From Dickeya dadantii NCPPB 898 (GTDB lineage Bacteria; Pseudomonadota; Gammaproteobacteria; Enterobacterales; Enterobacteriaceae): 32,000 bases of DNA. Positions 1 through 29,605 of this stretch are shown one piece after another. The position numbers and the translations under genes are program-made. The notes below the pieces were generated by a model. That model worked only from the letters and a program-made list of their open reading frames with translations, did no database searches and was not told the origin of the DNA. The first letter of the stretch is position 1. Each line of letters begins with the position of its first letter. The stretch lies in contig NZ_CM001976.1 of NCBI RefSeq assembly GCF_000406145.1, positions 1,525,315-1,557,314 on the forward strand, written 5' to 3'.

Positions 1-1307
1 AATGACCAAAATCTTGAAAAATAGCACTAAGGCAACGGTGCCATGTCCTTATATCAATGCTGGCAACATCAATCCCGTTCCAGGTAATACGACCGGATGT
101 GGGGTGGTACAAACGGCAGAGCAGCTTAATCAGTGTTGATTTACCTGCGCCATTTTCACCAACAATAGAAAGATGGTCACCAGCATGGATCGTTAGATTA
201 ATATTGCTGAGAACGTTGTGGCCGTTTTCATAAGAAAAGGAAACATTTTCAAACTTGATTTCATTTAGAGGAGGTATCTCAGAGAGGGGGTTGCTGTTCT
301 CCTGCGCAACGCTTTCAAGTTCTCGCAGTCGAGCAAAGAAACTAAAACAGACGCCGATATTAGCAAAGGAATACACCATCCACTGGCAAGATAAACCAAA
401 GAAAGAAATTGATTGTATGGTGCCCAGTAACCCTCCGACAGAAATTTTGCCTGCCTGAAGGTATTCAACAAACCAGTACATAACACCCAGGATAGATGCC
501 AGATATAAAAGATTCCATGGCTGGGGTCTGAGTAATTGTTTGCGTCTGACCTGATTTAGTTCATTTTCCAGCTCTTCGAATGCCTGCGTGTGTTTGGTGA
601 AAAAAAATGATGCTGAACGGAAAATTCTGACCTCTTTAGCTAGCTTCACATCAAGTAGAACAGCCAGATAATACCTTATCAGGCGAGCAGCGGTACCTTT
701 TCCCAGCAGAGCCCGAAAAATATCGATTTGTGAAAGCGCAACAGTAAAAGTGATCGGGATAAGCGGCAGAAGAAATGCCAGAGGAAACCACCAGACAACT
801 GAAGCCAGTACCAGAGACAAAGACAACAGCGTTAGTATGCCGCGAAATATATCAACAAGATTAACCAGAAGGTTCAGCGGACGGTGAGCAGCTTCTCTTG
901 AAAGAACCTCAAGATTATCGTGTATGTCCGGTTTCTCGATAATTTTCAGGTCTTCAATGCGGCAGGCTGCCTCCATAATAGTTCGTTGCGTCAGATAGGT
1001 GGCATGCTGATTCAGTATGCTTTGTAGAGTACTGATAATGGGAGCCAGCACGACCGGGGAAGACAAATGTCAGTGCCCAGAATACTGCCACGGTCATCAG
1101 ACCTGAATGATCCGGGCTACTGATGATATTTCCGAGCCGGATGCTTGCCATCACACTCATGGTAGGCAATAACCCCTGCAGGGCAATGAGGATGATAAAC
1201 AGCGTGGATAGCCATGGTGATCTCCTGAATAGCAATGAAAGCGAATAGGTCACCAGATTCAGTTTTTCTTTTACCTTCTGCATCAGAAAAGCTCCATTGT
1301 CAGGCAT
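1..1307 (-). pseudogene. ABC exporter with fused permease and ATP-binding domains (type I exporter, MsbA/MdlB-like); reading frame interrupted; 3' end lies beyond window start
   Basis: The minus-strand frame covering 1-1069 is open to the window edge. It reads ...PVVLAPIISTLQSILNQ...VRIFRSASFFFTKH...FENVSFSYENGHNVLSNINLTIHAGDHLSIVGENGAGKSTLIKLLCRLYHPTSGRITWNG (Walker A GENGAGKST). The hydrophobic N-terminus (track ORF 954-1307, ...LFIILIALQGLLP...AVFWALTFVFPG) is in another frame. Removing one base of the G4 run 1056-1059 would join them as ...ALTFVFPVVLAPIIS.... The probable start is ATG 1283 (TGATG overlap with the upstream stop) or 1307. Confidence 0.7.
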
Positions 1308-2137
1308 TTCCCGTTCGGGAAAATGACAAATTCATCAAAATGTCGGGGAGTATTCAGAATTAGCTCCATCGCATCCCTGGTTTCCGTTCTGTAGAGGGAG
1401 GATATCATTTTTACACGGTATGTCTGGTTACCCATTTTTTTGCACGCATGCCGTACAGAGTGTGTTGATAGTGAATGCCCATCTGGCGTTGCCAGAAATG
1501 TCATGTTTTCAGAAAACACGCCGTATGATGTGATATCGATGCTTCCATGAAATTTATTTCCGAGAGTCTGACAGAGCGAAGGGTAATGGAGCCATGAAGT
1601 GTGCGTTGCATGAAAGTTGTGGCAGATGACAAAAATTAATTCATAACCAAGCTGGATAGCTAACCCGATCTTCTCTGCCATAGCGGTCTCACGCTGTTCC
1701 GGCGTTGCTCCAGTCATACTTAATGTACTTTGTCGATCAAACTCCAGCAAACTGATCAACAGACGCTGCTCAGCAAGAGGAACTAAGCGAATACTTTTAA
1801 TATAATTTTCATGAAGTGTTGTGGATAAAGGTAAATCAATTCCCGCAATAACGCATGTTGCAGGTAAAGCACGGAGGAAAGTTGCAAACTCCTCAGAACG
1901 CATCCACCAGTACGCCGACGATGTAAGGTACGACATGTCCCCGGTATTTATTTTTCTAAAGCGTCTGAGTGCAAACACAATCAGGTCTATAGTCGGACAT
2001 TCGACAAGAACTATGCTACGTAACTCCCTTCGGAGCTTATGTATAAAGGCATTCCGAAACGCCCATGACTCGTCTGAACCATGGCTGTTCTGACCAATAA
2101 AATAAATATGCTTTTTAGCCTGCTTTGTATACAACAT
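1283..2137 (-). CDS. Erythromycin esterase (EreA/EreB)-like hydrolase, ChaN/TraB/TIKI superfamily
   Basis: 284-aa ORF with three motifs in the family-typical order: FIGQNSHGSDE (GExxHGxxE-like), RETAMAEKI (RDxxMAEN-like) and VICHNFHAT (AHNxH-like). Its start overlaps the upstream gene by 23 nt and its stop overlaps the ABC start. The family call rests on remembered motifs, not on an HMM run. Confidence 0.6.
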   Translation of the reverse strand: MLYTKQAKKHIYFIGQNSHGSDESWAFRNAFIHKLRRELRSIVLVECPTIDLIVFALRRFRKINTGDMSYLTSSAYWWMRSEEFATFLRALPATCVIAGIDLPLSTTLHENYIKSIRLVPLAEQRLLISLLEFDRQSTLSMTGATPEQRETAMAEKIGLAIQLGYELIFVICHNFHATHTSWLHYPSLCQTLGNKFHGSIDITSYGVFSENMTFLATPDGHSLSTHSVRHACKKMGNQTYRVKMISSLYRTETRDAMELILNTPRHFDEFVIFPNGKCLTMELF

Positions 2138-3641
2138 TCATACTCCGCGCTATAAGGTGATGTTGTCTTAATAAATACCGTTCATCACGAGAAAAATAGC
2201 TGTCAATCTGTTCAAGAGGGGTAGTAGGGAAGAAATCAGGGAATTCGTTTTTCTCTCCATCAAATAAACTGCGTGAATTAATAAAAAGATGAAACAGAGG
2301 AATGTCATAGTTTGTAAGGCAGGATACTTCATATAATATAAGACTCTGAAACTTGGGGTGTGAACCGGGGTAGAGTAAAAATTCATCAATTAACGCTGGT
2401 AGCTTTTCTTTGATATTTATGCTTGTCTCTGGGTGAATTATTTTGTTAATGATAAGTAGATAATAAGCTGTTGTGCGAACGAGGTAACGTGGTTTAATTT
2501 CTGAGTGGTTTTTCAGGAGGGAAATTATTCTCGCATGGTTTTTTTTTAATTTGAGAAACGTGTCGGTATATCCCTCTGTTACATCAGAAATATGCTTCTT
2601 AGCGTTCACCGGAAGACCGTGGTAGTGTGGGAAATTTTGTGTCCGTTTGGCAAATCCTCGCTCATATCGAACCTGAATATTTTCAGTCGCATCATGGATG
2701 GCGTGAGGATAGGTAAAAGACTGAAATATATTGGTGACAGCGGTAAGCGCTGATGTATGCCCTAGTCCATTCTTGACAACATCCGGGCTCTGAAGCAATC
2801 CGCTTTGATATATAGAACGTTCAAATTCCGGGGCGTCATCAAAAAAATACTGGAAGCTGGTTTCGGGATCTATCAGCCATACAGTGCCAGCATCTACAAT
2901 GAAGTTATCAAAATGACAGTCATTGATATTCAGAAGATCGGCTAGAGCTAAAATATTACCGTATCTTCTGTAAACTTTAGCTGCATCCACGCTGGAATCC
3001 AGGCCCCTGTTTTCGACAAATTCCTGCCACAAATGTGTTTTAAAACTAAGTGTCACAGGGCAGACATTAGCTAACCCGATAATGTTGCAGATCTCATTAA
3101 GTACATTTTCAATGCCAGAATCTCTGGGTTTGTAAATAAGCTTGAAGCTTCCGAGGGCTAGTATCACTGGTTGTTGTCCATTGTCATGCCGGTCACCAGC
3201 AGCTAAAGACAGCTTTCCCGGAGTTGAAAAAAGTGGTGGGCAATTATAAATATCAATAAGTAACTTATGTTCCTCGATCAAGCGGATAAGAAAATTATTT
3301 ATGTTTGCGATAGTGGTATCACAGATATGTTCTGCCAGTTGACTAATATATTGATTGTTGTTTCTTAGCCCTGGTAGCCAGGAATTATCATCATTCTTGA
3401 AATAGGAAGTATATCTATCTGAATGTGAATCGGGTTGTGTTTTCAGCCATTCATCGAAATTAACAACAAAATCAGGAAGGTGGATTTGATCAAGTGATTC
3501 AGAGATACTCAATGATACATCTGTAAAATCGAGGTGATGCAGACCATAATCAGTCAGCATCTGCTGCATCTTTTGGTTAAAATTTCTTAGATATGGGAAA
3601 TAGAGGTAAGCACGATATGGTTCTGACAGTATGTAGCGCAT
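2115..3641 (-). CDS. Stand-alone LanM N-terminal (DUF4135, lipid-kinase-like dehydratase domain) homologue without a LanC cyclase domain
   Basis: 508-aa ORF with an AAGGA Shine-Dalgarno 9 nt upstream of ATG 3641. It has the ordered signature blocks AAGDRHDNGQ (GDxHxxG), LIYKPRD (YKPR), NDCHFDNFIV (DxHxEN) and WLIDPETSF (IDxE) known from class II lanthipeptide synthetase dehydratase domains. The protein ends after this domain. Confidence 0.7.
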   Translation of the reverse strand: MRYILSEPYRAYLYFPYLRNFNQKMQQMLTDYGLHHLDFTDVSLSISESLDQIHLPDFVVNFDEWLKTQPDSHSDRYTSYFKNDDNSWLPGLRNNNQYISQLAEHICDTTIANINNFLIRLIEEHKLLIDIYNCPPLFSTPGKLSLAAGDRHDNGQQPVILALGSFKLIYKPRDSGIENVLNEICNIIGLANVCPVTLSFKTHLWQEFVENRGLDSSVDAAKVYRRYGNILALADLLNINDCHFDNFIVDAGTVWLIDPETSFQYFFDDAPEFERSIYQSGLLQSPDVVKNGLGHTSALTAVTNIFQSFTYPHAIHDATENIQVRYERGFAKRTQNFPHYHGLPVNAKKHISDVTEGYTDTFLKLKKNHARIISLLKNHSEIKPRYLVRTTAYYLLIINKIIHPETSINIKEKLPALIDEFLLYPGSHPKFQSLILYEVSCLTNYDIPLFHLFINSRSLFDGEKNEFPDFFPTTPLEQIDSYFSRDERYLLRQHHLIARSMNVVYKAG

Positions 3642-3661
3642 ACATCTTATCCTTTCTTCCT

Positions 3662-3692
3662 AAAAAAGGGCAGCCGATGGCCGCCCTTTTTT
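3662..3692 (-). terminator. Rho-independent hairpin between the peptide gene and the DUF4135 gene (probable partial terminator/attenuator)
   Basis: The plus strand reads AAAAAAGGGCAGCCGATGGCCGCCCTTTTTT. On the minus transcript this gives GGGCGGCC-AUC-GGCUGCCC, 8 bp including one G-U pair, followed by U6. On the plus strand the same position is an A-C mismatch, so the structure is better in the operon direction. Confidence 0.6.
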
Positions 3693-3693
3693 A

Positions 3694-3873
3694 TCAATTA
3701 AAGAATTCTTCAGTAATTTCCTGAAGCTCTTTGATTAGTACTTCTTCCGAGGAGATATTAATACCACCACCTCCGCAGTCGCAGGTACCACTGGCGCAGT
3801 CAACACCACTATTAGCCATATAACCGCGAATATCGGAGATCTTACTCGGTGCTACTTCGATAATACGTTCCAT
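3694..3873 (-). CDS. 59-aa Cys/Gly-rich peptide, candidate RiPP precursor (below the 60-aa ORF-track cutoff)
   Basis: My own translation of the minus strand gives MERIIEVAPSKISDIRGYMANSGVDCASGTCDCGGGGINISSEEVLIKELQEITEEFFN. ATG 3873 is preceded by GAGGTAACAA (good SD). It is the first gene of the operon and is followed by a hairpin terminator. Confidence 0.65.
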   Translation of the reverse strand: MERIIEVAPSKISDIRGYMANSGVDCASGTCDCGGGGINISSEEVLIKELQEITEEFFN

Positions 3874-4697
3874 TTGTTACCTCAGATTTTGTCAATTACT
3901 ATGTAAGTGGATAAAAATGTCTTCGCGAGATACAACTTTTGTGTACACGGAGAAAGCATAAAATGGGAATAATAGATTAAAATGTGATCTGTCTCTGATA
4001 AATCATCTGATGGTAATTTGATTTTTTATTTTCCAGTGATTTGAGTTTTTTTGTTCTTATGTATAGTTTCTTTTTCTATGATCTCTAATGTTTTTTCATT
4101 ATGTGCAAACAATATGCATTTTTACTATTCATGTTTTGTTTCATATTTTACCCCTATTGAGGGTGTGAAATTATGGTAATTAAGTGAAAGATTAAAAATC
4201 TAATGAAGGGACATTAAGCGATTATTCATTGCACGGACAGTAACATATATCAGATTTGGGAATTTTTTCTTTAGCACAAGTAAATAAATTTACTTATGGT
4301 AATAATTTATTTTGATGAAAGTTATTTATTGGGAGCGATAAAATATCGAGCAGATTGATTTATGTAGCGGACATTCTGGATGTACTAATGTCTATGATAA
4401 ACTACAGTTTGTTCAATGTGTTCGGAAAGAATTATACAGAAATGCTCGATCTTTAACTGAATATTAATGTTTGTTTAATAAAATTATAATGAATTTTTAG
4501 TTCGCAATAATGTTTGATTCATTCTCAGGGAAAGACCGTTAATTGGCATAATTACTGTATCTGGTTTCAAGTCAGCTTCACGGCTGTTCGGTGTTCACTT
4601 TACTTCAGCCATGGCGTATTGCATTGCTAACTAAAAGAATAGCACTTGTACTGACGGGGACTACTTCAAGGTTATCCATTAATCAATCTACTGAAGA

Positions 4698-5044
4698 CTA
4701 AGGCAACATGATGGCTATTTTCTCTACTCTGGGTATTAACGAAGGAGACATCCGCTTACCGGTCACGACACCTGCCAAATTCAATGCAGCGCTGTTTTCA
4801 CCCGCCCCTTCTGTAATGCGTAACGCATGATGGTGCACAGGTGCTGCCGGGTACGGGACGCCACTCCCAGCAAGCCTTTTTTCTCTATGCCTTTCAGCAG
4901 GTCGATGAAATGGCGGGGTTTCAGCTCCGTGACGGGCTGGTGCCCGATGACCGGAAAGAGATGGTTGTTCGTGCTGGCAAGCAGACGAACGGCATGGTTC
5001 TCTGGCCATGTCCGGTTGCGCTTATGCCAGTCCACACTAACATG
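4698..5044 (-). pseudogene. P4-type (tyrosine) integrase fragment, truncated at both ends and frameshifted
   Basis: Track ORF 4781-5035 (DWHKRNRTWPENHAVRLL...LFPVIGHQPVTELKPRHFIDLLKGIEKKGLLGVASRTRQHLCTIMRYALQKG) matches the N-terminal SAM-like/arm region of CP4-57/P4 integrases. The continuation (ALNLAGVVTGKRMSPSL...) is in another frame (ORF 4698-5009). The catalytic domain is absent. Confidence 0.75.
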
Positions 5045-5078
5045 TCAGCAACACTGATATAAGACCGCAAATTTAATT

Positions 5079-5507
5079 TTAAGTTTTTTGGCGAGAAAAT
5101 CTTATCTTGACGGGGCTTCCATTCAAAGTCAGTGAGCGTACCTCACCAGGTATCATGACGCCAGCCCAGTTAAACGTCTTCTCATTGCGCACAGCCTGAA
5201 AACGAACAGTATATTCCTGATTTTCCTTCTTAACCTGGAGCGTAAGTAACTCCGATTTTCCATTGCTCTGTGCATAGTGAGTTTGTGGGACAACAAGGCC
5301 TATTCCCTGAGGTGGGAACGGTTTTCCGTTGATTTCAACCAGCAACCAGAAAGATTCATTTGGGTCGCCACACTCCTTTACTGTCTGCTTAGGTTCTCCA
5401 AATGCTTCGAAAGTTACTGTTGGGCATAGCTCTGGAAACTCACTGGCGGCATTGCTAGCGTTTGAAATGAAAAATGCAAGAGCGGGGATGAGTATCTGAA
5501 TTTTCAT
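5079..5507 (-). CDS. Hypothetical small secreted protein (N-terminal signal peptide)
   Basis: 142-aa ORF. Its N-terminus MKIQILIPALAFFISNASNA/ASE has an n-h-c signal-peptide layout with an AxA-like cleavage site. I recognise no family. Confidence 0.55.
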   Translation of the reverse strand: MKIQILIPALAFFISNASNAASEFPELCPTVTFEAFGEPKQTVKECGDPNESFWLLVEINGKPFPPQGIGLVVPQTHYAQSNGKSELLTLQVKKENQEYTVRFQAVRNEKTFNWAGVMIPGEVRSLTLNGSPVKIRFSRQKT

Positions 5508-5685
5508 AGGAAGCCATGTTTTGTAAGGTTATTAAATCTAATCTGCAACAAACAAAAAAAACTTAATAGGAAAATTAATATGGCAACACAGAACTGGGAG
5601 GCCATCGAGACAGCATACTGGGATAGGTATGATACTTTTGCATGAAAGTGTCAGACTCGATTTTTACGCAATGTATCGAAAAAGA

Positions 5686-5721
5686 TATTCTGAAATGGTT
5701 TTCTGAAAGTATTCTGAAATG
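5686..5721. repeat. Three tandem 12-bp repeats (TATTCTGAAATG / GTTTTCTGAAAG / TATTCTGAAATG)
   Basis: Read directly: the units are 5686-5697, 5698-5709 and 5710-5721. Units 1 and 3 are identical and unit 2 matches at 9/12. The array lies 34 bp beyond the tRNA-Asn 3' end, on the island side. Confidence 0.85.
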
Positions 5722-5754
5722 CAAAGGGCTGCATACGCAACCCCTTGATAAATT

Positions 5755-5830
5755 TGGCTCCTCTGACTGGACTCGAACCAGTGACATACGGATTAACAGT
5801 CCGCCGTTCTACCGACTGAACTACAGAGGA
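5755..5830 (-). tRNA. asnT-like: tRNA-Asn (anticodon GUU)
   Basis: The reverse complement reads TCCTCTGTAGTTCAGTCGGTAGAACGGCGGACTGTTAATCCGTATGTCACTGGTTCGAGTCCAGTCAGAGGAGCCA. It is 76 nt with a cloverleaf, a CT-GTT-AA anticodon loop and an encoded CCA, and matches the enterobacterial tRNA-Asn as I remember it. Confidence 0.97.
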
Positions 5831-5848
5831 ATCGTTGGAACGGGGCGC

Positions 5849-5877
5849 ATAATAACGAGGTCTGCCGTGCATGTCAA
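5849..5877 (-). promoter_or_regulatory. Sigma-70 promoter of tRNA-Asn with GC-rich discriminator
   Basis: The minus strand reads TTGACA (5877-5872), a 17-bp spacer, TATTAT (5854-5849), then GCGCCCC. That is typical of a stringently controlled stable-RNA promoter, and it lies ~19 nt upstream of the tRNA 5' end. Confidence 0.6.
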
Positions 5878-5992
5878 AGGTGTAAACCACATTTTTGACG
5901 CGTTTGGCGAGGGAGTGCGCAATATCTCGACTTTTTCACACGATCGTCTTGATTGAACTGCGTTTTACGTTATGTCGCGGTGGTAAAACAGC

Positions 5993-6022
5993 GGGCCGGC
6001 AGTCGCGCGATGCTGCCGGCCC
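5993..6022 (-). terminator. Hairpin terminator downstream of lacZ
   Basis: GGGCCGGCAG (5993-6002) pairs with CTGCCGGCCC (6013-6022), giving a 10-bp GC stem. On the minus transcript it is followed by GCUGUUUU. Confidence 0.6.
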
Positions 6023-13628: not shown

Positions 13629-14542
13629 ATAAACCTCATGTTGATGAATGTATTCAGACAACACACAGTGTTATTGCAGCGTAGCGGTCAGCGATGTCGT
13701 GAGACATACGCAGGCCGATACCCTGATTTGTTTGTGGGGTGTTGTGTCTGCCGCGCGAAATACTACAACGAAATCGGATTTTTGCCCTTTTTTTCTGCTA
13801 ATAAAATGAAATGCATCACTGAATGAGGTCAAAAATGCGTTATTTCCCTGCTGATTATGGGTAAAAACCAGACATATAGTAGGTATATATGTTTTTATAA
13901 TTTCATATTTATCAATTGGTTGTGTGTTTCACGTGCTAAGGCGGCGGGCGATTTTTGTGTTAATCATAACATTTTCTTATATCTTAATCGGAGTCAGCAA
14001 TAAAACAAATAATCGCTGCTGAACTATTTTTATCTGCACACGGTTTTATTATTGATTGATGACATGAGTAATTAATAAACAGTAATTACCCTTCTGTTCA
14101 TGAAAATATAATCTGGCGTAATACCGGCAAGCTGGTATGCAATTGAATAAAAACAACAGTAATTTTAATGACCTGCTTTAATTGAATCGGACGGGAGCAT
14201 TAATGTTATTTTTTTCTTTATAGATGTAATTTAAATGTTGCGTTTTGGTTTTTGTGTGAATAAAAATTAAGCAATTCCGCGTAATGGCTCAGCATCACGA
14301 CAATATTTCCTGAGCCAGTATCGGTAATCGCTTCTGTATAAAATAAACTCAAAATAGTAAACGGTTCTTATTATTATCTGTCGCGGCAGGCGATAATTGT
14401 TCATCTGGTGACCGCTTGTCGCCGGCGTGCTCCGGTTTAGCACGATTCAGATCAAGCTATTGGTGAGGCGACGTGTCATTTCCTCAGGGAAGCTCTTACA
14501 CTATTTCCCCACACTATCTATGGAAATTGGATTACGGTGGTT

Positions 14543-16720
14543 ATGGCGACACGACTGACAGACTCTCCGTCCCGGTTGTCTATTCTGTGGCAGGATGCCT
14601 TGCTGAAAATTTCTCAGTCACTGTTGCAACAGCGCACCATTCACGACCTGCTGCGGGCGCTGGATGGCGTGTCGTTTTCGGTGGTGCGCTTTGGCCGCGT
14701 CAACCTGATCCTGCTTGATCCACTGCATAACCAGATGAATTTCTATCGCCACGACCGCGAATCTGGGCAGACCCAGTGCAGCGAGGAGGCGATTCTGCTG
14801 GCGAACGGCCCTGGCGGAGTGGTGTGGAGCACCCAGACCCCGCTGCATTGCGATCGGACGCACTTCCTGCGCGATTTTCCCCATCTGACTGACCAGCCGG
14901 CCTACGCTGGGCTGAGCGACTATTGCCAGTTGCCGCTGCGCGGCATGCACCGTGGGCTGGGCGGGGTGGAATTCATCAAGACCGACGGCAGCCGTTTCAC
15001 CGACAACGAACTCGATTTTTTCCAGGCGCTGGCCGGGGTGGTGGCGCTGGTGGTGGAAAACATTAGCGAACGCGAGCAGGTGCTGCAGGAAGAGGAGCGC
15101 TTGCGCCATGAGCGCGACCATCTGCGTATTCTGGTGGATGTCACCAACACCGTGATTTCCAAGCTGGAACTGAAGGCGCTGGCGCTGGAGGTGTCGCGAG
15201 AAATCCACCGCTTCTTCGGCATCGATTTTATCGCGCTGGTATTAAAAGAAGGCGAGGGCGACACGCCAGCGCTCAAGTATCTCGCCACCCTATACCCGCA
15301 GTCCGGCGCGCCGAAAACGGTGCAAGGCGAGGTGGAGCGGGCACAAACGCTGGCAGACGGCGTGATGGCGCAGCATCAGCCGCAACTGATACGAGTAACG
15401 GAGCGCCCTCAACGCGGCGAACCGCGCCCGCTTTGTCAGTGGTTTGATCGCGAACTGTCTCACGTTTGCCTGTTGCCGCTGGCGTTCGGCAACCGGACGT
15501 TGGGTGTGCTGGAACTGGCGCACCGTTCTGCGCTGGCGGTCAGCGAGGCGGATCTCCGGCTACTGCGGCAGATTGCCGCGCGTATCGCCATTGCGCTGGA
15601 TAACGCGCTGGCCTATGAGCAGATCACCCGGCTGAAGGATTCGCTGATCCATGAAAACTTCTACCTGACCGAACAACTGACCGAGCATATTCATCAGCGC
15701 AGCGGCGATGAGTTTGGCGAAATCATCGGCCGCAGCGCGGCGATCCGCCAGGTGCTGGAACAGGTGGAGATGGTGGCGGCCAGCGACAGCACCGTGCTGA
15801 TTCTGGGGGAAACCGGCACCGGCAAGGAGCTGATTGCCCGCGCCATCCACAGTCTGAGCCAGCGTAAAGTCCAGCATATGGTAAAAATGAATTGCGCCGC
15901 CATTCCGTCCGGCCTGCTGGAAAGCGACCTGTTCGGCCATGAAAAGGGCGCGTTCACCGGCGCTACCAGCCAGCGTCAGGGGCGGTTTGAACAGGCGGAT
16001 AACAGCACGTTGTTTCTGGATGAGGTGGGCGATATCCCGCTGGAACTGCAGCCCAAACTGCTGCGGGTATTGCAGGAGCGGGAGATCGAGCGGCTGGGCG
16101 GCAGCAAAGTGATTTCGGTGGATGTGCGGTTGATCGCCGCCACCAACCGTGACCTGAAGCAGATGGTGGCGGACCGCGAATACCGCAGCGACCTTTATTA
16201 CCGACTCAACGTGTTTCCCATCGTCATTCCGCCGCTGCGCGAGCGGCCGGAAGATATTCCGCTGCTGGTGAAGTTTTTCACCCGCAAGATCGCCCGCCGC
16301 ATGAACCGCACCATCGACAGCATTCCGTCCGACATGTTGCGTCAACTGAGCCGTTTGCCGTGGCCCGGCAACGTGCGGGAACTGGAAAACGTGGTGGAGC
16401 GGGCGGTGATCCTGACGCGCGGCACCACGCTCAATCTGCAGATCGATGAATTGCAGCATCATCTGTCGCCGCTGGAGGTGCCCAAACCGGCGCACCGCGA
16501 CTTTCCGCCGCCGCCGGTGGCGGCTGAGCCGTCATCCGGGCAACTGGATGCTGACGAGGAATCGGAGCGCGAGCGTATTATCCGGGTATTGCGGGAAACC
16601 AACGGCATCGTCGCCGGCCCGAAAGGCGCCGCCGCCCGGCTCGGGCTTAAGCGCACCACATTGTTGTCGCGCATGCAACGTATGGGGATTTCCGCCCGGG
16701 AAATCGAGGGAATTTCCTGA
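14543..16720 (+). CDS. fhlA: Sigma-54-dependent formate hydrogenlyase transcriptional activator (GAF-GAF-AAA+-HTH)
   Basis: ~725-aa ORF (ATG 14543; an in-frame GTG at 14537 is also possible). It is collinear with E. coli FhlA: [47 protein letters not shown], the GAFTGA motif and the C-terminal [25 protein letters not shown]. Confidence 0.9.
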
Positions 16721-16757
16721 TTTTCGTGATTGAAACGATGAGGTTGTGAGACGGCTT

Positions 16758-16791
16758 GAAAAAGCCATCCTCCCCGAACGAGGAGGATGGC
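16758..16791 (-). terminator. Rho-independent terminator of fdhF
   Basis: GCCATCCTCC (16764-16773) pairs with GGAGGATGGC (16782-16791), a 10-bp stem. On the minus transcript it is followed by UUUUUC. Confidence 0.65.
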
Positions 16792-16811
16792 GAAGGGGTG
16801 ATGGCGAAGGA

Positions 16812-18962
16812 TTAACCGGCCACTTCCGCTTCTTTACGCAGACGGGCTTTCAGCGCGCTGTACTCCTGTACGACGTAGTTCTCCGCCCAGTTCTGGTCGG
16901 CGATCGGTTCCAGTTTCACCGCGCAGTGCTTGTATTCCGGCGTCTTGGCGATCGGGTCCACTTCGTCCAGCGTCAGTTCGTTACAGGCGCCAATCCACCA
17001 CTGATAGGTCATGTAAACCGCGCCCTTGTTGATGCGCTCGCTGACCATCGCCCGGCTGATCACCTTGCCGCGGCGTGACGCCACCCATGTTAGTTGTTGA
17101 TCGCGAATGCCGAGACGAGCGGCGTCTTCCGGGTTCATCTGCACGTAGCCCGGCTCGTCCGCCAATGTTTGCAGCGCGGTGCAGTTGCCGGTCATGGAGC
17201 GGCAGGAGTAGTGACCGACTTCGCGCACCGTGGAGAGCACCAGCGGGTAGTCGGCGTCGGTCTGCTCCATCGGCGGGTGCCATTCGGTCGCAAACAGCAG
17301 CCCTTTGCCGTTCGGGCGGTCGAACTGGTTGCCGGCGTACAGCCACGGCGTGCCTGGGCTGTCTTCGGTCAGGCACGGCCACGGCACATAGCCCAGACCG
17401 GCCATTTTCTCGTAGGTAGCGCCGTAATAGAGCGGGCACAGATTGCGCAGCTCATCCCAGATTTCATTGGTGTTGTTGTAGTGCATCGGGTAGCCCAGCG
17501 CGGTCGCCATCAGGCTGATGATTTCCCAGTCCGGCTTGACGTTGCCCTGCGGTTCCACCGCCTTGTAGAAACGCTGGAAGCCACGGTCGGCGGCCGAATA
17601 CACCCCTTCATGCTCGCCCCAGGAGGTGGCGGGGAAGATCACGTCCGCCACGGCGGCGGTCTTGGTCATGAAGATGTCCTGAACGATCAGCAATTCCAGC
17701 TGGTTGAAGGTTTCGCGCACCACCGACAGGTCCGGCTCGGTTTGCAATGGGTCTTCGCCCATCAGGTAGTTGGCCTTGATCTTGCCTTCCTTGATCATGT
17801 GCGGCACGTCGGTCAGCGAGTAGCCGATGCGGTCGGACAACGACGGCACGCCCCAGGCTTTGGCGAATTTTTCGCGCACGTCCGCGTCGGTGACTTGTTG
17901 GTAGCCGGGGAACTGGTTCGGCAGCGCGCCCATATCGCAGGCGCCCTGTACGTTGTTCTGGCCGCGTACCGGGCCGACGCCGACATTCGGACGGCCGAGG
18001 TTACCGGTGAGCAACGCCAGGCCGGACAGACCTTTCACCACGTCCACGCCCTGCGTCCACTGGGTGACGCCCATGCCCCACAGAATGGTGGCGGACGGCG
18101 CGGCGGCGTACATACGAATGGCGTCACGGATCAGCTGCGGGTCGAGACCGGTGATGTCCGCCACGTATTCCGGCGTGTATTTCGCCACCAGATTGCGGTA
18201 TTCCTCGAACCCTTCGGTATGTTGCGCCACGAAATTCGCGTTATACAGCCCTTCATTGAGCAACACGTTGGCGAAAGCGTTGACCAGCGCCATGTTGGAA
18301 CCGTTCTTCAGCGGCAGCCACAGGTCGGCGATGCGGGCGGTTTCGATGTGCCGCGGGTCGCAGACGATGATTTTAGCGCCGCGTTCTTTGGCCTTGATGA
18401 TGCGACGCGCCACAATCGGGTGAGAGTCGGCGGCGTTGTAGCCGAACACCAGAATGCAGTCGGTGTGTTCGATTTCGCAAATCGAGTTACTCATCGCGCC
18501 GTTGCCCAGCGTTACCTGCAGGCCGGAAACCGACGGGCCGTGACAGACGCGGGCGCAGCAGTCGATGTTGTTGGTGCCGGTGACCGCGCGGGCGAATTTC
18601 TGCATCACATAGTTGGTTTCGTTGCCCGGCCCGCGGGACGAACCGGTGTGCATGATGGCGTCCGGACCGTATTTTTCCTTGATGGCTTTCAGGCGGGAAC
18701 TGGCGAAGTCGATGGCTTCGTCCCAGGACACCACCTCAAACGGCGCGCCTTTCTGGCGGCGGATCATCGGTTGCTTCAGCCGTGGGGTTAACAGCTTGGT
18801 GTCGTTGAGAAAATCCCAGCCGTAATAGCCTTTCAGGCACAGCTCGCCTTCGTTGGTCAGGCCGTTGGCGCCTTCCGCGCCGACCACTTTGCCGTTTTCC
18901 ACCAACAGGTTAATTTTGCAGCCTGACCCACAGTAAGGGCAGACGGTAATTACTTTCTGCAT
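16812..18962 (-). CDS. fdhF: Formate dehydrogenase H, cysteine-containing variant (no in-frame UGA)
   Basis: The track ORF starts at 18980. ATG 18962 (MQKVITVCPYCGSGCKINL...) aligns with the E. coli FdhF N-terminus and has an AAGGAG SD upstream. The active-site block reads NNIDCCARVCHGPSV, with TGT (18543-18545) where E. coli has UGA-Sec140. Confidence 0.93.
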   Translation of the reverse strand: MQKVITVCPYCGSGCKINLLVENGKVVGAEGANGLTNEGELCLKGYYGWDFLNDTKLLTPRLKQPMIRRQKGAPFEVVSWDEAIDFASSRLKAIKEKYGPDAIMHTGSSRGPGNETNYVMQKFARAVTGTNNIDCCARVCHGPSVSGLQVTLGNGAMSNSICEIEHTDCILVFGYNAADSHPIVARRIIKAKERGAKIIVCDPRHIETARIADLWLPLKNGSNMALVNAFANVLLNEGLYNANFVAQHTEGFEEYRNLVAKYTPEYVADITGLDPQLIRDAIRMYAAAPSATILWGMGVTQWTQGVDVVKGLSGLALLTGNLGRPNVGVGPVRGQNNVQGACDMGALPNQFPGYQQVTDADVREKFAKAWGVPSLSDRIGYSLTDVPHMIKEGKIKANYLMGEDPLQTEPDLSVVRETFNQLELLIVQDIFMTKTAAVADVIFPATSWGEHEGVYSAADRGFQRFYKAVEPQGNVKPDWEIISLMATALGYPMHYNNTNEIWDELRNLCPLYYGATYEKMAGLGYVPWPCLTEDSPGTPWLYAGNQFDRPNGKGLLFATEWHPPMEQTDADYPLVLSTVREVGHYSCRSMTGNCTALQTLADEPGYVQMNPEDAARLGIRDQQLTWVASRRGKVISRAMVSERINKGAVYMTYQWWIGACNELTLDEVDPIAKTPEYKHCAVKLEPIADQNWAENYVVQEYSALKARLRKEAEVAG

Positions 18963-18996
18963 GACATTGCTCTCCTTCATCGTACCGACGGCACGC

Positions 18997-19539
18997 TCAG
19001 AATTTCATTTCCGCGGCTTCATCGAGTGCTGCGCGCCGCTGTTTACGTTGGATCATCTCCTGAATGTCTTCCCGGCTGATCAGGCGCAGGGCTTTGGTCG
19101 GGCAGACCTCAACGCAGGCCGGGCCGTTGGCGCGCCCTTCGCACAGGTCGCACTTGTGCGCTTCCGCCTTGATGCAGTTACCCAGCGTTTGATAATGGCT
19201 GATACGCGCCACCGGTTTACTGATCACCGTCATGGCGCCGTACGGACAGGCCACCACGCAGGTTTTGCAGCCAATGCATTTTTCCTGCTGTACCCGGATA
19301 TGATCGCCGGCGTGTACGATCGCCCCGTTAGGGCAAACATTGGCGCAGGGCGCGTCTTCACAGTGGCGGCATTGAATCGTGGTGCTGACATTCAGCCCCT
19401 TCACCACTTTCAGGCGCGGCGTGAAATGTTCTGGCGACAGCGACGACGGATTGCCGTCGCTGTGCGCCAGCACGCAGGCGACTTCGCAGGTGCGGCAGCC
19501 AATACATTTCCTGGGGTCTGCTAAAACGAACCGGTTCAT
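18997..19539 (-). CDS. hydN: 4Fe-4S ferredoxin-type electron transfer protein HydN
   Basis: 180 aa. MNRFVLADPRKCIGCRTCEVACVLAH...CRHCEDAPCANVCPNGAI...CIGCKTCVVACPYGAM...CDLC...GPACVEVCPT is collinear with E. coli HydN. Confidence 0.9.
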   Translation of the reverse strand: MNRFVLADPRKCIGCRTCEVACVLAHSDGNPSSLSPEHFTPRLKVVKGLNVSTTIQCRHCEDAPCANVCPNGAIVHAGDHIRVQQEKCIGCKTCVVACPYGAMTVISKPVARISHYQTLGNCIKAEAHKCDLCEGRANGPACVEVCPTKALRLISREDIQEMIQRKQRRAALDEAAEMKF

Positions 19540-19616
19540 GACAGGGTCTCCTTCCGCGGCTCTGATGGACTAAGGGTTATGTCGACGGCCCGGTCGCCGA
19601 CACATCACCACAGATA

Positions 19617-19633
19617 AAGCAGGGTTTATGCCA
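19617..19633 (-). promoter_or_regulatory. Sigma-54 (-24/-12) promoter upstream of hydN-fdhF
   Basis: The minus strand reads TGGCATAAACCCTGCTT. GG and GC have the canonical spacing of TGGCAC-N5-TTGC. It lies ~80 nt upstream of the hydN ATG, and an FhlA-type activator is encoded nearby. Confidence 0.65.
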
Positions 19634-19985
19634 GAATGAATGCTTATGGTTTATCGATTTGATTTATCAGCAATTTAAAACGGTTTTTTTGGGAAAAGAT
19701 CGCTAGTGGCCGGCTGGTGACGAGTGTCGGCAGACGGGGTTCGGCAGATTTGACGACGCGCGCCCGGCGCGGTGCAGGTCGCGCCGACAGACGGATAAAA
19801 GCGAATCTGTTGCGAAGCGCGTTCCAGCTCTGAAAACCGCCTGTCGAGGTTAGAAAGCCCGGCCTTTATTGTGTCTTCAGCGCTATGGCGACGTACCCGC
19901 ACATTTCAGCGGCGCGCAATGGCTTTTTATTTTTCAGTGGAATCAACATGAAGCCTTTTACAGGCGATAAGACTGAAATAGGATG

Positions 19986-20007
19986 ATTGTATCCCGTGGG
20001 ATACAAT
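19986..20007. promoter_or_regulatory. Perfect palindrome ATTGTATCCC-GT-GGGATACAAT; candidate operator of the DUF4160/DUF2442-HTH pair
   Basis: Read directly: two 10-bp arms with a 2-bp spacer, 30 bp upstream of ATG 20037. The right arm contains a TACAAT -10-like hexamer. Confidence 0.5.
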
Positions 20008-20036
20008 GTTACTCTGTTCATTGACAAGGAGTGCCA

Positions 20037-20294
20037 ATGCCTGAGATTGACAGACTGGCGGGGCTGATTTTCCATTTGTACTTTTACGACGATGAGCGGC
20101 ATCACTTACCGCATGTCCATGTCTGCTACGGCAACCATGAACTTATCATCAATATTCGTACCGGAACCGAGATCGAAGGATATCTGCCGAATAACAAGCG
20201 CAAGCTGGCGCTTGCGCATATCAGGGCCCACCGGCAGCAACTGCTGAGTATGTGGGAACGGGCGGTAGTGAGGAGAAATCCGGGAAAACTGTGA
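20037..20294 (+). CDS. DUF4160 family protein
   Basis: ~85 aa. ATG 20037 is preceded by AAGGAG; the track uses GTG 20031. It has the family-typical block YFYDDERHHLPHVHVCYG. Confidence 0.72.
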   Translation: MPEIDRLAGLIFHLYFYDDERHHLPHVHVCYGNHELIINIRTGTEIEGYLPNNKRKLALAHIRAHRQQLLSMWERAVVRRNPGKL

Positions 20295-20301
20295 GGCATT
20301 T

Positions 20302-20790
20302 ATGCATAAGATCGTGGAAGTTGACGTCATTGGCGATTTTTCGTTGCGCCTGACCTATGAAGATGGTCTGGTTTGCGACATCAATCTTTATCTCTATGCC
20401 CCCAGCCCGGTGTTTTCGAACGCCAGCCAGTTTATCAAATTTGGCCTGCTGCCGGACGGTTCGCTGGAATGGCTGCCGGATATTAGGATTTCCGCGTCGG
20501 AATTGCGGAAAAAAGGGGAGTATGTCAGCCACACGCTCGCGGTGCGAGAAAGGAACTTCGCTGATGTTATCTCTCGCGCCTTCTATGATGCCGTGATTGA
20601 AAACCGGCCGGAAATTCTGCAAGCGGCGTTGAAAACCGCGGTGGAAAAACATGGCAACAGCACCGTAGCCAAAGAGGCGGGGGCGAAAAGCCGCACCAGC
20701 CTGTATAAGTCGCTGAATAAGAATACCAATGTCAGCCTGGCGACGGTGGTCAGCCTGGCGCACACCGTGCTGCAACTGGAAGAAAAGTAG
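20302..20790 (+). CDS. Fusion protein: N-terminal DUF2442 domain plus a C-terminal HigA-type 'addiction module antidote' HTH
   Basis: 162 aa with a GAGG SD. The N-terminal half (KIVEVDVIGDFSLRLTYEDGLVCDINL...) is DUF2442-like. The C-terminal half (...ENRPEILQAALKTAVEKHGNSTVAKEAGAKSRTSLYKSLNKNTNVSLATVVSLAHTV) resembles antidote-type HTH proteins. Confidence 0.65.
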   Translation: MHKIVEVDVIGDFSLRLTYEDGLVCDINLYLYAPSPVFSNASQFIKFGLLPDGSLEWLPDIRISASELRKKGEYVSHTLAVRERNFADVISRAFYDAVIENRPEILQAALKTAVEKHGNSTVAKEAGAKSRTSLYKSLNKNTNVSLATVVSLAHTVLQLEEK

Positions 20791-20810
20791 GCCGTGGGCT
20801 TCCGGTTACG

Positions 20811-20834
20811 AGCGGGGCTGGCGCCTGCCCCGCT
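20811..20834. terminator. GC-rich stem-loop between convergent genes (weak terminator candidate)
   Basis: AGCGGGGC (20811-20818) pairs with GCCCCGCT (20827-20834). There is only a short T tract (TT) on the plus side and none on the minus side. Confidence 0.35.
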
Positions 20835-20874
20835 TTAGCCATGCAGCGTAATACCGCGCCAGCGCACGATTGGC

Positions 20875-21369
20875 TTACGACAGCACCTCAAACCCGCCAT
20901 TCTCTTCCCAACCGGATAACCGCTGATACAGGGCGTCTACCGCCTGCGTCACTTCCGGGCTGATGGGAAAATAAAACGCCACCAGCGCAGGCTGGATACC
21001 GATGAAAATCACCTCGGGAATGTCTTCCTTCAGGCTATCGATCAGGTAGTTCAGCGGCAGGCTGTGGGTATTCATCAGCATGTCTTCGGCGATGCGCTGC
21101 GGATCGACGATGCGGATGGCGCCCGGCGTCAGCCCCATGTCGGTGGCGTCCACCACCAGCAGGCGGCGAGGCTTCAGCTCCCGCAGCGTGTGGGCGGCAT
21201 TTTCCGGAATAGGGCCGCCGTCAATCACCGACCAGCCCGCCACCGGCTGCCGGTTCATGCGCTCCGCCAGCAGCGGGCCGGCGCCGTCGTCGCCCATCAG
21301 GGTGTTGCCGACGGTCAGCACGATATTTTCGATATACAGTGGCGCTTCATTATGTAGATGTTCAGTCAT
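20875..21369 (-). CDS. hycI: Hydrogenase 3/4 maturation endopeptidase
   Basis: 164 aa. VGNTLMGDDGAGPLLAE...VIDGG...LLVVDATDMGL...NTHSLPLNYLIDSLKEDI is collinear with E. coli HycI. Confidence 0.92.
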   Translation of the reverse strand: MTEHLHNEAPLYIENIVLTVGNTLMGDDGAGPLLAERMNRQPVAGWSVIDGGPIPENAAHTLRELKPRRLLVVDATDMGLTPGAIRIVDPQRIAEDMLMNTHSLPLNYLIDSLKEDIPEVIFIGIQPALVAFYFPISPEVTQAVDALYQRLSGWEENGGFEVLS

Positions 21370-23114: not shown

Positions 23115-23124
23115 GGGGCCTCCC

Positions 23125-26524: not shown

Positions 26525-26529
26525 GGTGA

Positions 26530-27180: not shown

Positions 27181-27189
27181 GAGAGTTCC

Positions 27190-28629: not shown

Positions 28630-28645
28630 GATGGATGCCGACTCC

Positions 28646-29593: not shown

Positions 29594-29605
29594 GTTCCGG
29601 TCTCC

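What the first reader, a model, noticed from the sequence alone, without database searches (positions are those of the whole stretch)
3694..3873. Hidden 59-aa ORF with a lanthipeptide-like Ser/Thr-Cys core and a leader-like motif at the C-terminus
The translation is MERIIEVAPSKISDIRGYMANSGVDCASGTCDCGGGGINISSEEVLIKELQEITEEFFN.

In the segment 22-33, every Ser/Thr has a Cys 3-4 residues downstream (S22-C26, S28-C31, T30-C33). This is the spacing used for overlapping (methyl)lanthionine rings, and it is followed by GGGG.

The acidic helical tail contains ELQEIT. That fits the ELxxBx-type motif I recall as conserved in class II (lacticin 481-group) leader peptides, but here it lies C-terminal to the Cys-rich segment. 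It may therefore be a follower peptide rather than a leader.

The strong SD, the first-gene position and the downstream attenuator-like hairpin all fit a precursor gene.
Basis: partly seen in the sequence, partly recalled or inferred. Interest (0 to 1): 0.8.

Follow-up and report, generated by a model that had tools for sequence, protein, structure and literature searches.

The report
Precursor peptide of cyclase-less lanthipeptide-like cassette
The 59-codon ORF is a real gene under strong selection. It most likely encodes the precursor peptide of an uncharacterised enterobacterial modified-peptide pathway, made of half a lanthipeptide synthetase (dehydratase only, no cyclase), an erythromycin-esterase-fold enzyme and an ABC exporter.

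Summary
The ORF at 3694..3873 (-) exists exactly as described. It is the first gene of a four-gene cassette: peptide, a stand-alone LanM-type dehydratase (DUF4135, 508 aa), a 284-aa erythromycin-esterase-fold protein, and an ABC exporter.

I found this cassette, in the same order, in every related locus examined (about 20; Dickeya, Erwinia, Buttiauxella, Scandinavium, Dryocola, and metagenomes with about 34% GC). The peptide ORF is intact in all of them. Its synonymous sites are saturated, while residues 1-32 hardly change.

Across 20 distinct peptides the motif [ST]22-x3-C26-x-[ST]28-G-T30-C31 sits at a fixed position. S and T interchange at positions 22 and 28. C33 is not conserved.

The dehydratase keeps all nine CylM residues needed for phosphorylation and phosphate elimination. 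No LanC cyclase and no C39 peptidase is present.

The "follower" idea is weak. The strict ELxxBx tail motif occurs in only 13 of 20 peptides. An N-terminal [IVM]xxIRG motif, which resembles the class II leader motif ELxxBxG, is present in 20 of 20.

The reading as a RiPP precursor is well supported. Thioether rings, the role of the esterase-fold enzyme and the leader/follower assignment remain inferred. I found no publication on this cassette. In this window the exporter gene is frameshifted.

The parts
3694..3873 (-). Precursor peptide gene (59 aa). It has four segments: a conserved N-terminal segment (residues 1-21, with [IVM]xxIRG at 12-17), an invariant [ST]xxxCx[ST]GTC core (22-31), a Gly-rich linker of variable length, and an acidic tail ending in FF.
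   Evidence: Searches give the sequence. Searches give the homologues and alignments. Searches show purifying selection. One search gives the motif counts.
3880..3883 (-). Shine-Dalgarno GAGG, 6 nt upstream of the ATG of the peptide gene.
   Evidence: The same GAGG/GGAG is seen upstream of all homologous peptide genes.
3661..3693 (-). GC-rich stem-loop followed by U6, lying between the peptide stop codon and the dehydratase gene. It looks like a leaky terminator, attenuator or mRNA-stabilising element.
   Evidence: -23 kcal/mol, z = -3.5; a strong hairpin with a different sequence sits in the 48-89 nt spacer of all 12 enterobacterial-type loci. It is absent where the spacer is only 11-13 nt (L020 and L021).
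2115..3641 (-). Stand-alone LanM-type dehydratase (DUF4135, 508 aa): a kinase plus phosphate-lyase half of LanM, without the cyclase half.
   Evidence: Pfam PF13575, E = 3.7e-70. It covers TIGR03897 positions 5-519 of 932 and scores below that model's cutoff. The alignment to CylM places D150, H152, K171, D241, H243, N246, D258, R385 and T391 on the CylM catalytic residues. The AF2 model matches LicM2 and CylM with TMq 0.74 and 0.69.
1283..2137 (-). 284-aa cytoplasmic protein with an erythromycin-esterase (Ere/ChaN/TIKI-type) fold. Its gene overlaps the dehydratase gene by 23 nt. The predicted catalytic residues H19, E46, R149 and H176 are invariant, and so are C47, C172 and C189.
   Evidence: No Pfam or NCBIfam hit. 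AF2 pLDDT 90.5. Foldseek finds 2QGM, 2RAD and 3B55 at E = 1e-11 and EreC at E = 3e-9. The EreC catalytic residues come from PMC7979712.
1..1283 (-). ABC exporter gene (a half-transporter of about 593 aa, with no C39 peptidase domain). It is cut off by the start of the window and is frameshifted by a 1-nt insertion near position 1052.
   Evidence: tblastn shows the match in two reading frames. The insertion relative to D. solani is shown. The gene is intact in D. solani and D. chrysanthemi.
5755..5830 (-). tRNA-Asn at the edge of the low-GC island that carries the cassette.
   Evidence: tRNA. (38-45% GC across 1..6000, against about 60% elsewhere). Integrase-fragment ORFs lie at 4781..5035; D. 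solani has an integrase fragment at the same site.

Best explanation
The ORF encodes the precursor of an uncharacterised lanthipeptide-like RiPP carried on a mobile low-GC island.

Proposed pathway:
1. The peptide gene is transcribed from the first position of the operon. A stem-loop right after its stop codon probably gives more precursor mRNA than enzyme mRNA (inferred).
2. The stand-alone LanM-type dehydratase recognises the conserved flanks. The most likely recognition element is the N-terminal segment with its [IVM]xxIRG motif. The enzyme uses ATP to phosphorylate S22, S28 and T30 and then eliminates the phosphate, giving Dha/Dhb. This is inferred from the complete catalytic set.
3. The two invariant cysteines, C26 and C31, then add to Dha22 and Dha28 to give two small thioether rings (i+4 and i+3). 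Because no LanC is present, this would happen spontaneously, on the dehydratase, or with help from the next enzyme (speculative).
4. The translationally coupled erythromycin-esterase-fold protein keeps the Ere catalytic His/Glu/Arg/His set and adds invariant cysteines. It most likely acts as the processing hydrolase that trims a flank, since no other protease is encoded (inferred).
5. The ABC half-transporter exports the product and may protect the producer.

In this particular window the exporter gene is frameshifted, so this copy may be inactive.
For: Synteny and selection:
- The order peptide -> DUF4135 -> Ere-fold protein -> ABC is kept in all complete related loci, down to 39% enzyme identity and in contigs with about 34% GC.
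- The peptide ORF is intact everywhere. dS is saturated, while dN for residues 1-32 is 0-0.38.
- Invariant R3, G17 and position 28 use 4-6 different codons, including both Ser codon families and Thr.

Peptide motifs:
- C26, G29, T30 and C31 are invariant. Positions 22 and 28 are only ever S or T.
- The core motif is at a fixed position in 20 of 20 peptides, and the N-terminal BxxBxG motif is also present in 20 of 20.

Dehydratase:
- The CylM residues D252, H254, K274, D347, H349, N352, D364, R506 and T512, shown by mutagenesis to be needed for phosphorylation or elimination (PMC4550811), align to invariant D150, H152, K171, D241, H243, N246, D258, R385 and T391.
- The predicted fold matches LicM2 and CylM.

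Ere-fold protein:
- Foldseek gives E = 1e-11 to 3e-9 on a model with pLDDT 90.5.
- Its motifs GQNSHG, ECPT, RE..M and CHNFHA follow the order and spacing of EreC E47/H50, E78, R261 and H289.
- Its gene overlaps the dehydratase gene.

Other:
- The ABC protein has no peptidase domain.
- None of the cassette proteins matches a specific anti-phage defence family; the exporter gives only generic ATPase hits.
Against: - No product has been observed. Dehydration, ring formation and cleavage sites are all inferred.
- No LanC-type cyclase is present in the cassette or among the large ORFs of the window that I scanned, so thioether rings are not guaranteed.
- At least one DUF4135 enzyme (CcaM, dehydrazoles) dehydrates without forming lanthionine (PMC10676384).
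- A core this invariant, flanked by two conserved segments, is unusual for lantibiotics. It resembles precursors of small cofactor-like or signal products.
- The map of Ere catalytic residues rests on motif order and spacing, not on a residue-level structural alignment.
- The exporter is frameshifted in this window. Decayed copies exist elsewhere.
Confidence: 0.6

Rival explanations
1. The acidic C-terminal helix (ELQEIT...FF) is a follower peptide that carries the class II ELxxBx recognition motif. It docks the LanM-type dehydratase, so recognition comes from the C-terminal side of the core.
For: ELxxBx is a genuine class II leader motif (PMC11877530). ELQEIT, ELEEIS and ELEEVS resemble ELEKLT of estercin. 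A looser tail motif, B-x-x-[VIL]-x3-[FY][FY], is present in 20 of 20 peptides. The linker between core and tail varies in length, as a tether would.
Against: The strict ELxxBx motif is in the tail of only 13 of 20 peptides and is lost in the more distant members, whose enzymes are still conserved. The tail evolves several times faster than residues 1-32. An N-terminal motif that matches ELxxBxG more completely, including the G, is present in 20 of 20 peptides at the canonical position. I could not run a complex prediction.
Confidence: 0.2
2. The peptide is a substrate of the dehydratase, but the product is not a lanthipeptide. One option is a linear Dha/Dhb peptide whose C26 and C31 form a disulfide after export. 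Another is a small molecule excised from the invariant S/T-G-T-C core by the esterase-fold hydrolase, in the manner of PQQ or pantocin.
For: There is no LanC cyclase. CcaM shows that a DUF4135 enzyme can dehydrate without making lanthionine. The short core is extremely invariant and both flanks are conserved. The only accessory enzyme is a hydrolase-fold protein.
Against: The [ST]-x3-C and [ST]-x2-C spacings are those of known small lanthionine rings (established knowledge). Dha is also known to react readily with a nearby Cys thiol without an enzyme (established knowledge). No oxidase or other tailoring enzyme is encoded in the cassette.
Confidence: 0.2
3. The small protein is not a substrate at all. 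It would be a regulator, an immunity factor or a partner subunit of a kinase-like enzyme that acts on another target.
For: No modification has been observed. The peptide matches no known precursor family.
Against: The constraint falls precisely on the Ser/Thr and Cys positions, with S and T interchanging. The peptide gene is in the first position, followed by a stem-loop and then the enzyme, which is the classic precursor layout. The enzyme keeps the phosphate-elimination residues, which only make sense for dehydrating a peptide Ser or Thr.
Confidence: 0.05

Closest known systems
Class II lanthipeptide systems (LanA/LanM/LanT; for example lacticin 481, cytolysin CylL/CylM, lichenicidin LicM2)
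   Same: The dehydratase is homologous to the N-terminal half of LanM in both sequence and fold, and it has all the catalytic residues. The precursor gene comes first and is followed by a stem-loop. The core has Ser/Thr-x(2-3)-Cys spacings. An ELxxBxG-like motif lies N-terminal to the core. An ABC exporter is encoded in the operon.
   Different: The enzyme stops where the LanC-like cyclase domain would begin. There is no GG/GA/GS cleavage site and no C39 peptidase domain on the transporter. An Ere-fold protein sits at the place of the cyclase in the gene order. The host is a Gram-negative enterobacterium. The precursor has a conserved C-terminal tail.
Dehydrazoles (CcaM, a 'LanMbC': DUF4135 fused to a zinc-free class III cyclase domain; PMC10676384)
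   Same: A divergent DUF4135 dehydratase is used outside canonical class II lanthionine synthesis.
   Different: CcaM still carries a cyclase-like domain and needs it. It works with YcaO/dehydrogenase on azole-containing cores and does not depend on a leader. None of these partners is present here.
Class V lanthipeptides (cacaoidin, lexapeptide/pristinin type; from my own knowledge)
   Same: Lanthionine-type products are made without a LanC-homologous cyclase. Dehydration is done by separate proteins.
   Different: Class V uses a separate kinase (LanK) and lyase (LanY/LanX), not a DUF4135 enzyme. Those systems are actinobacterial and have no Ere-fold protein.
Erythromycin esterases EreA-D and B. 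cereus BcR135/BcR136 (Ere/ChaN/TIKI-type fold)
   Same: They are the best structural matches. The motif order and spacing correspond to EreC E47/H50, E78, R261 and H289.
   Different: There is no detectable sequence match to Pfam, NCBIfam or PDB. The protein is about 120 residues shorter than Ere enzymes. It has extra invariant cysteines next to the catalytic positions. Its context is a peptide-modification operon rather than macrolide resistance. Distant Ere relatives and Tiki/TraB proteins have been noted in graspetide loci, with unknown roles (PMC8939145).
Enterobacterial microcin clusters with a dedicated ABC exporter (for example microcin J25 McjA-D; from my own knowledge)
   Same: A small horizontally acquired operon in Enterobacterales: a precursor gene, one or two maturation enzymes and an ABC exporter without a peptidase domain. 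The precursor is Gly-rich and acidic.
   Different: The maturation chemistry and enzymes are unrelated.

Membership tests
Class II lanthipeptide (LanM) system | LanM-type dehydratase domain (DUF4135, lipid-kinase-like fold) with the residues for phosphorylation and phosphate elimination | tested here: met
   PF13575, E = 3.7e-70. All nine CylM catalytic residues align to invariant residues. Foldseek matches LicM2 and CylM at E = 3e-20 and 3e-19.
Class II lanthipeptide (LanM) system | LanC-like zinc-dependent cyclase domain fused to the dehydratase | tested here: not met
   The protein is 508 aa and covers only positions 5-519 of the 932-position TIGR03897 model, scoring 205 bits against a cutoff of 304. 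TM-score normalised to the target is only 0.41-0.43. No LANC_like hit was found in the cassette proteins or in 10 other large ORFs of the window.
Class II lanthipeptide (LanM) system | N-terminal leader with ELxxBx(G) ending in a double-glycine-type site (GG/GA/GS) | tested here: inconclusive
   [IVM]-x-x-I-R-G at residues 12-17 is present in 20 of 20 peptides, but it is followed by Y, not G/A/S, and begins with K/R rather than E. The strict ELxxBx motif is found only in the C-terminal tail, in 13 of 20.
Class II lanthipeptide (LanM) system | LanT-type ABC transporter with an N-terminal C39 peptidase domain | tested here: not met
   The exporter is about 593 aa. It gives only generic below-cutoff ABC-exporter matches (MsbA, HlyB, etc.) over its membrane and ATPase regions, with ABC_tran as its only clear Pfam domain, and no peptidase domain.
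Class II lanthipeptide (LanM) system | (Methyl)lanthionine thioether cross-links in the mature product | not testable with these tools
   This needs mass spectrometry or NMR of the product. The only evidence here is the invariant [ST]x3C and [ST]x2C spacing.
RiPP precursor peptide (general) | A short ORF next to and co-oriented with the modifying enzyme, co-conserved with it and under purifying selection | tested here: met
   The synteny holds in all complete related loci.
RiPP precursor peptide (general) | The peptide is post-translationally modified by the neighbouring enzyme | not testable with these tools
   This requires co-expression or in vitro reconstitution with mass spectrometry.
Erythromycin esterase / ChaN / TIKI-type hydrolase superfamily (284-aa protein) | The shared fold | tested here: met
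   AF2 pLDDT 90.5 and pTM 0.89. Foldseek probability 1.00 to 2QGM, 2RAD, 3B55 and EreC 6XCS/6XCQ, with TMq 0.54-0.68.
Erythromycin esterase / ChaN / TIKI-type hydrolase superfamily (284-aa protein) | Catalytic residues equivalent to EreC E47/H50, E78, R261 and H289 | tested here: inconclusive
   Invariant Q16/H19, E46, R149 and H173/H176 occur in the same order with nearly the same spacing (27 and 27 residues, against 28 and 28 in EreC). No residue-level structural alignment was available.
Erythromycin esterase / ChaN / TIKI-type hydrolase superfamily (284-aa protein) | A match to the family's sequence models | tested here: not met
   No Pfam, NCBIfam or PDB-sequence hit, even when searching with a 19-sequence profile.
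Follower-peptide RiPPs (C-terminal recognition sequence) | The C-terminal segment is required for enzyme recognition and is removed afterwards | not testable with these tools
   Only conservation could be assessed. The tail motif is loose but universal, and it evolves faster than the N-terminus.

The most novel reading that the evidence does not exclude
This would be a new RiPP class of Gram-negative enterobacteria. A LanM dehydratase that has lost its cyclase works with an erythromycin-esterase-fold enzyme, which has taken over a RiPP role new for that fold. The role could be that of a metal- or Cys/His-dependent thioether cyclase standing at the place of LanC in the gene order, or that of the leader/follower protease. 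Together they would convert an invariant [ST]x3Cx[ST]GTC core, held between a leader and a follower, into a small bicyclic or otherwise novel product.
Probability: 0.3. Interest if true: 0.8.

Novelty: new variant of a known kind. Interest (0 to 1): 0.66.

Why it matters
Lanthipeptide biosynthesis is defined by pairing a dehydratase with a LanC-type cyclase. Here the LanM dehydratase half stands alone with a full catalytic set. Its fixed partner is a protein of the erythromycin-esterase fold, which has no established role in peptide natural-product biosynthesis.

If the product is cyclised, the system would show how thioether rings are made without LanC. If it is not, it would define a new use of LanM-type dehydration.

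The cassette is compact (four genes, about 4.5 kb). It comes from organisms closely related to E. coli, so reconstitution should be straightforward. It is present in many genomes of the potato pathogen Dickeya solani, where it may matter for competition or signalling.

The precursor has conserved segments on both sides of the core. This makes it a clean test case for leader versus follower recognition by a LanM-type enzyme.

Tried and rejected
- E. coli complete genomes: no DNA match to the cassette.
- Known precursor families: the peptide has no Pfam or NCBIfam hit at E <= 0.1.
- Defence system: no PADLOC hit for the peptide, the enzyme or the Ere-fold protein. The ABC protein gives only generic ATPase hits.
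- Sequence search of the 284-aa family against PDB: nothing meaningful. Only the fold search worked.
- Genome-collection scan with the enzyme profile: only 3 true cassettes, plus two distant stand-alone or partial DUF4135 genes. The Acidobacteria one has other neighbours, and its upstream 308-aa gene is unrelated to the Ere-fold family.
- Metagenome scan with the peptide: two of the seven loci (L018, L019) were chance DCASGTCD matches inside large Cys-rich or PilY1-like proteins. I rejected these as relatives.
- The 142-aa ORF upstream (5079..5507) as a conserved cassette member: rejected. The 142-aa gene near the D. chrysanthemi cassette is unrelated, and no other locus has this ORF.
- Literature: searches on DUF4135, Dickeya plus lanthipeptide or lantibiotic, erythromycin esterase plus RiPP, and cyclase-less LanM found no description of this cassette.
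- Spurious-ORF explanation: rejected on the selection evidence.

Full report
**1. The observation**

S22-C26, S28-C31 and T30-C33, the GGGG run and ELQEIT (49-54) are all as described. A GAGG Shine-Dalgarno sequence lies 6 nt before the ATG, at 3880-3883. Directly after the stop codon, positions 3661-3693 fold into a stem-loop of -23 kcal/mol (z = -3.5 against shuffles) followed by U6.

The ORF is not strictly hidden. NCBI lists an identical 'hypothetical protein' from Dickeya dadantii.

**2. The gene is real and under selection**

- A word-indexed search found 15 homologous clusters in Enterobacterales: Dickeya, Pantoea, Serratia, Buttiauxella, Salmonella, Enterobacter and Erwinia.
- A full HMM scan of 1.84 billion representative proteins added two distant members.
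- In every locus fetched through the enzyme rather than through the peptide, the ORF is present and intact.
- Nei-Gojobori estimates show synonymous sites at or near saturation, while dN for codons 1-32 is 0-0.38. The window compared with D. chrysanthemi differs at 11 of 20 synonymous sites and 0 of 76 non-synonymous sites in codons 1-32.
- Invariant residues use many codons. R3 uses AGA, CGA, CGC and CGT. G17 uses all four Gly codons. Position 28 uses AGC, AGT, TCA and TCC plus ACA and ACC.

**3. Anatomy of the peptide family (20 distinct sequences)**

- Invariant residues are R3, I4, I15, R16, G17, Y18, C26, G29, T30 and C31.
- Positions 22 and 28 are only ever Ser or Thr.
- The motif [ST]-x3-C-x-[ST]-G-T-C sits at the same position in 20 of 20 peptides.
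- After the core comes a linker of very variable length and composition. It is Gly-rich in most members.
- The tail is acidic and ends in an aromatic pair. A loose motif, B-x-x-[VIL]-x3-[FY][FY], is universal. The strict class II motif ELxxBx is in the tail of only 13 of 20.
- In the N-terminal segment, [IVM]-x-x-I-R-G (residues 12-17) is present in 20 of 20. It resembles the extended class II leader motif ELxxBxG (PMC6107846, PMC11877530) and sits in the canonical position upstream of the core.
- The tail evolves several-fold faster than residues 1-32.

**4. The cassette**

The genes downstream, on the same strand, are:

- (i) A 508-aa protein at 2115..3641.
- (ii) A 284-aa protein at 1283..2137, overlapping (i) by 23 nt.
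- (iii) An ABC exporter starting at 1283 and running off the window.

The order peptide, DUF4135, ~280-aa protein, ABC is kept in all complete related loci. These include Erwinia oleae, Scandinavium, Dryocola, Buttiauxella, Erwinia sp. E602, D. chrysanthemi, D. solani and several metagenomic contigs. The order holds down to 39% enzyme identity and in two contigs with about 34% GC. A distant branch adds a nucleotidyltransferase-like gene.

In the window, the cassette lies in a 38-45% GC island beside tRNA-Asn, with integrase remnants nearby. The rest of the window is about 60% GC. Other copies sit next to conjugation genes or an IS110 element.

**5. The 508-aa enzyme**

- It is a stand-alone LanM dehydratase half: PF13575 at E = 3.7e-70. 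It matches positions 5-519 of the 932-position LanM model and scores below that model's cutoff.
- A profile alignment to CylM places the residues shown by mutagenesis to be required for phosphorylation (D347, H349, N352, D364, K274) and for phosphate elimination (D252, H254, R506, T512) (PMC4550811). They fall on D241, H243, N246, D258, K171, D150, H152, R385 and T391. All nine are invariant in 19 family members.
- The AF2 model (pLDDT 84) matches LicM2 and CylM with TM 0.74 and 0.69 normalised to the query, but only 0.43 and 0.41 normalised to the target. It therefore covers only about the dehydratase half of those structures.
- No LanC-like domain is present in the cassette or in the ten other large ORFs of the window that I scanned.

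**6. The 284-aa protein**

- It has no sequence-family hit, even with a profile.
- Its confident AF2 model (pLDDT 90.5) matches the B. cereus Ere-like proteins 2QGM, 2RAD and 3B55 (E about 1e-11) and erythromycin esterase EreC (E = 3e-9).
- The invariant motifs GQNSHG (H19), ECPT (E46), RE..M (R149) and CHNFHA (H173, H176) follow the order and spacing of the EreC catalytic residues E47/H50, E78, R261 and H289 (PMC7979712). This mapping is an inference from motif order, not a residue-level superposition.
- The family also has invariant cysteines right beside these positions (C47, C172) and at C189. That suggests a possible metal or thiol chemistry site. I could not test this.
- The protein has no signal peptide, so it should be cytoplasmic.

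**7. The exporter**

It is a generic MsbA/HlyB-type half-transporter of about 593 aa with no C39 peptidase domain. In this window it carries a 1-nt insertion near position 1052 relative to D. solani, which shifts the frame. D. solani and D. chrysanthemi have intact copies, and one D. solani strain has a split one. The window copy may therefore be non-functional, or the insertion may be a sequencing error.

**8. The stem-loop**

All 12 enterobacterial-type loci have a strong hairpin (-17 to -25 kcal/mol) with a different sequence in the 48-89 nt spacer between peptide and enzyme genes. The two low-GC contigs have an 11-13 nt spacer and no hairpin. A stem-loop between the precursor gene and the enzyme genes is a classic feature of lantibiotic operons (established knowledge). 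Its function here is inferred.

**9. Most likely mechanism**

Shown:
- A translated, strongly constrained peptide gene.
- Obligate linkage to a catalytically complete LanM-type dehydratase, an Ere-fold protein and an ABC exporter.
- Constraint focused on two Ser/Thr positions, one Thr and two Cys.

Inferred:
- The dehydratase phosphorylates S22, S28 and T30 and eliminates the phosphate.
- C26 and C31 add to Dha22 and Dha28, giving i+4 and i+3 thioether rings.
- The Ere-fold enzyme trims a flank, since no other protease is encoded.
- The ABC transporter exports the product.

Ring formation without LanC would have to be spontaneous, templated by the dehydratase, or catalysed by the Ere-fold protein. 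Which flank is the recognition element is open.

**10. Comparison with known systems**

- The system works like a class II lanthipeptide pathway at the dehydration step. It fails three membership criteria for class II: a fused LanC cyclase, a double-Gly leader site and a C39 transporter.
- Dehydrazoles show that divergent DUF4135 enzymes can be used without making lanthionine. Those enzymes, however, keep a cyclase-like domain and need YcaO partners (PMC10676384).
- Class V lanthipeptides lack LanC but use unrelated kinase and lyase proteins (my own knowledge).
- Distant Ere relatives and Tiki/TraB proteins have been noticed in graspetide loci, with unknown roles (PMC8939145).
- I found no paper describing this cassette. 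Databases name the enzyme 'type 2 lanthipeptide synthetase LanM' and the peptide 'hypothetical protein'.

**11. Verdict**

The class II label and the follower idea are not established, and the third Ser/Thr-Cys pair is not conserved.

I classify it as a new variant of a known kind. It is worth experimental follow-up because the cassette is small, comes from relatives of E. coli, and raises a clear question: what replaces LanC, and what does an erythromycin-esterase-fold enzyme do to a peptide?

Noticed in passing
window 1..1283 (-), insertion near 1052: The ABC exporter gene of the cassette has a 1-nt insertion (CCCGGTCGTG versus CCCGGT-GTG in D. solani). This shifts the reading frame after about residue 75. 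The gene is also cut off by the start of the window.
   Followed up: yes
window 1..~5750; tRNA-Asn 5755..5830 (-); ORF fragments 4781..5035: The cassette sits in a 38-45% GC island in a roughly 60% GC genome, beside tRNA-Asn and P4-type integrase remnants. This indicates horizontal acquisition. D. solani carries the same island at the same site, next to lacZ.
   Followed up: partly
window 5079..5507 (-): A 142-aa ORF with a signal-peptide-like N-terminus (MKIQILIPALAFFISNASNA) and no hit in Pfam, NCBIfam or PADLOC. It lies in a 714-bp segment (5035..5748) that is absent from the D. solani island. It is unrelated to the 142-aa gene near the D. chrysanthemi cassette.
   Followed up: partly
window 1283..2137 (-), residues C47, C172, C189: The Ere-fold protein family has invariant cysteines immediately next to the predicted catalytic Glu and His residues (E46-C47, C172-H173...H176). 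This may indicate a metal-binding or thiol-based active site that differs from macrolide esterases.
   Followed up: no
window 2115..2137 and 1283: The dehydratase and Ere-fold genes overlap by 23 nt, and a similar overlap of about 20 nt occurs in most other loci. The Ere-fold stop codon and the ABC start codon overlap by 1 nt. This suggests the three proteins are translationally coupled.
   Followed up: partly
P0034 (D. dadantii); L006 9502..10340; L024: Decayed copies exist. A 315-aa D. dadantii ORF matches part of the dehydratase (99% identity over 38% of its length) and part of the Ere-fold protein (100% identity over 45%). The Buttiauxella Ere-fold gene is frameshifted. One D. solani strain has a split ABC gene.
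   Followed up: no
L009 10115..10933; L010 4535..5350: The most divergent branch of the cassette carries an extra 271-272-aa gene after the ABC exporter. It has a weak nucleotidyltransferase (GS...DVD) signature.
   Followed up: partly
L004 7596..9062: An Acidobacteria MAG encodes another stand-alone DUF4135 protein (488 aa). It sits beside a Ser/Thr kinase-TPR protein and an unrelated 308-aa protein. Cyclase-less DUF4135 enzymes therefore also occur outside this cassette, with different partners.
   Followed up: partly
L018 129..986; L019 1..3192: The octapeptide DCASGTCD also occurs by chance inside large Cys-rich or PilY1-like proteins of high-GC metagenomic contigs. These are not relatives of the peptide.
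   Followed up: yes
window 3874..4700: About 830 nt of AT-rich sequence upstream of the peptide gene contains no convincing ORF. The consensus scan found no sigma-70-like promoter on the minus strand. The promoter and any regulation of the operon remain unidentified.
   Followed up: no
window 14537..31645: The high-GC remainder of the window encodes core metabolism: an FhlA-like sigma-54 activator (14537..16720), a molybdopterin formate-dehydrogenase-like protein (16812..18980), and subunits of a hydrogenase-4 / formate hydrogenlyase-type complex (21757..28629). These are unrelated to the finding.
   Followed up: partly
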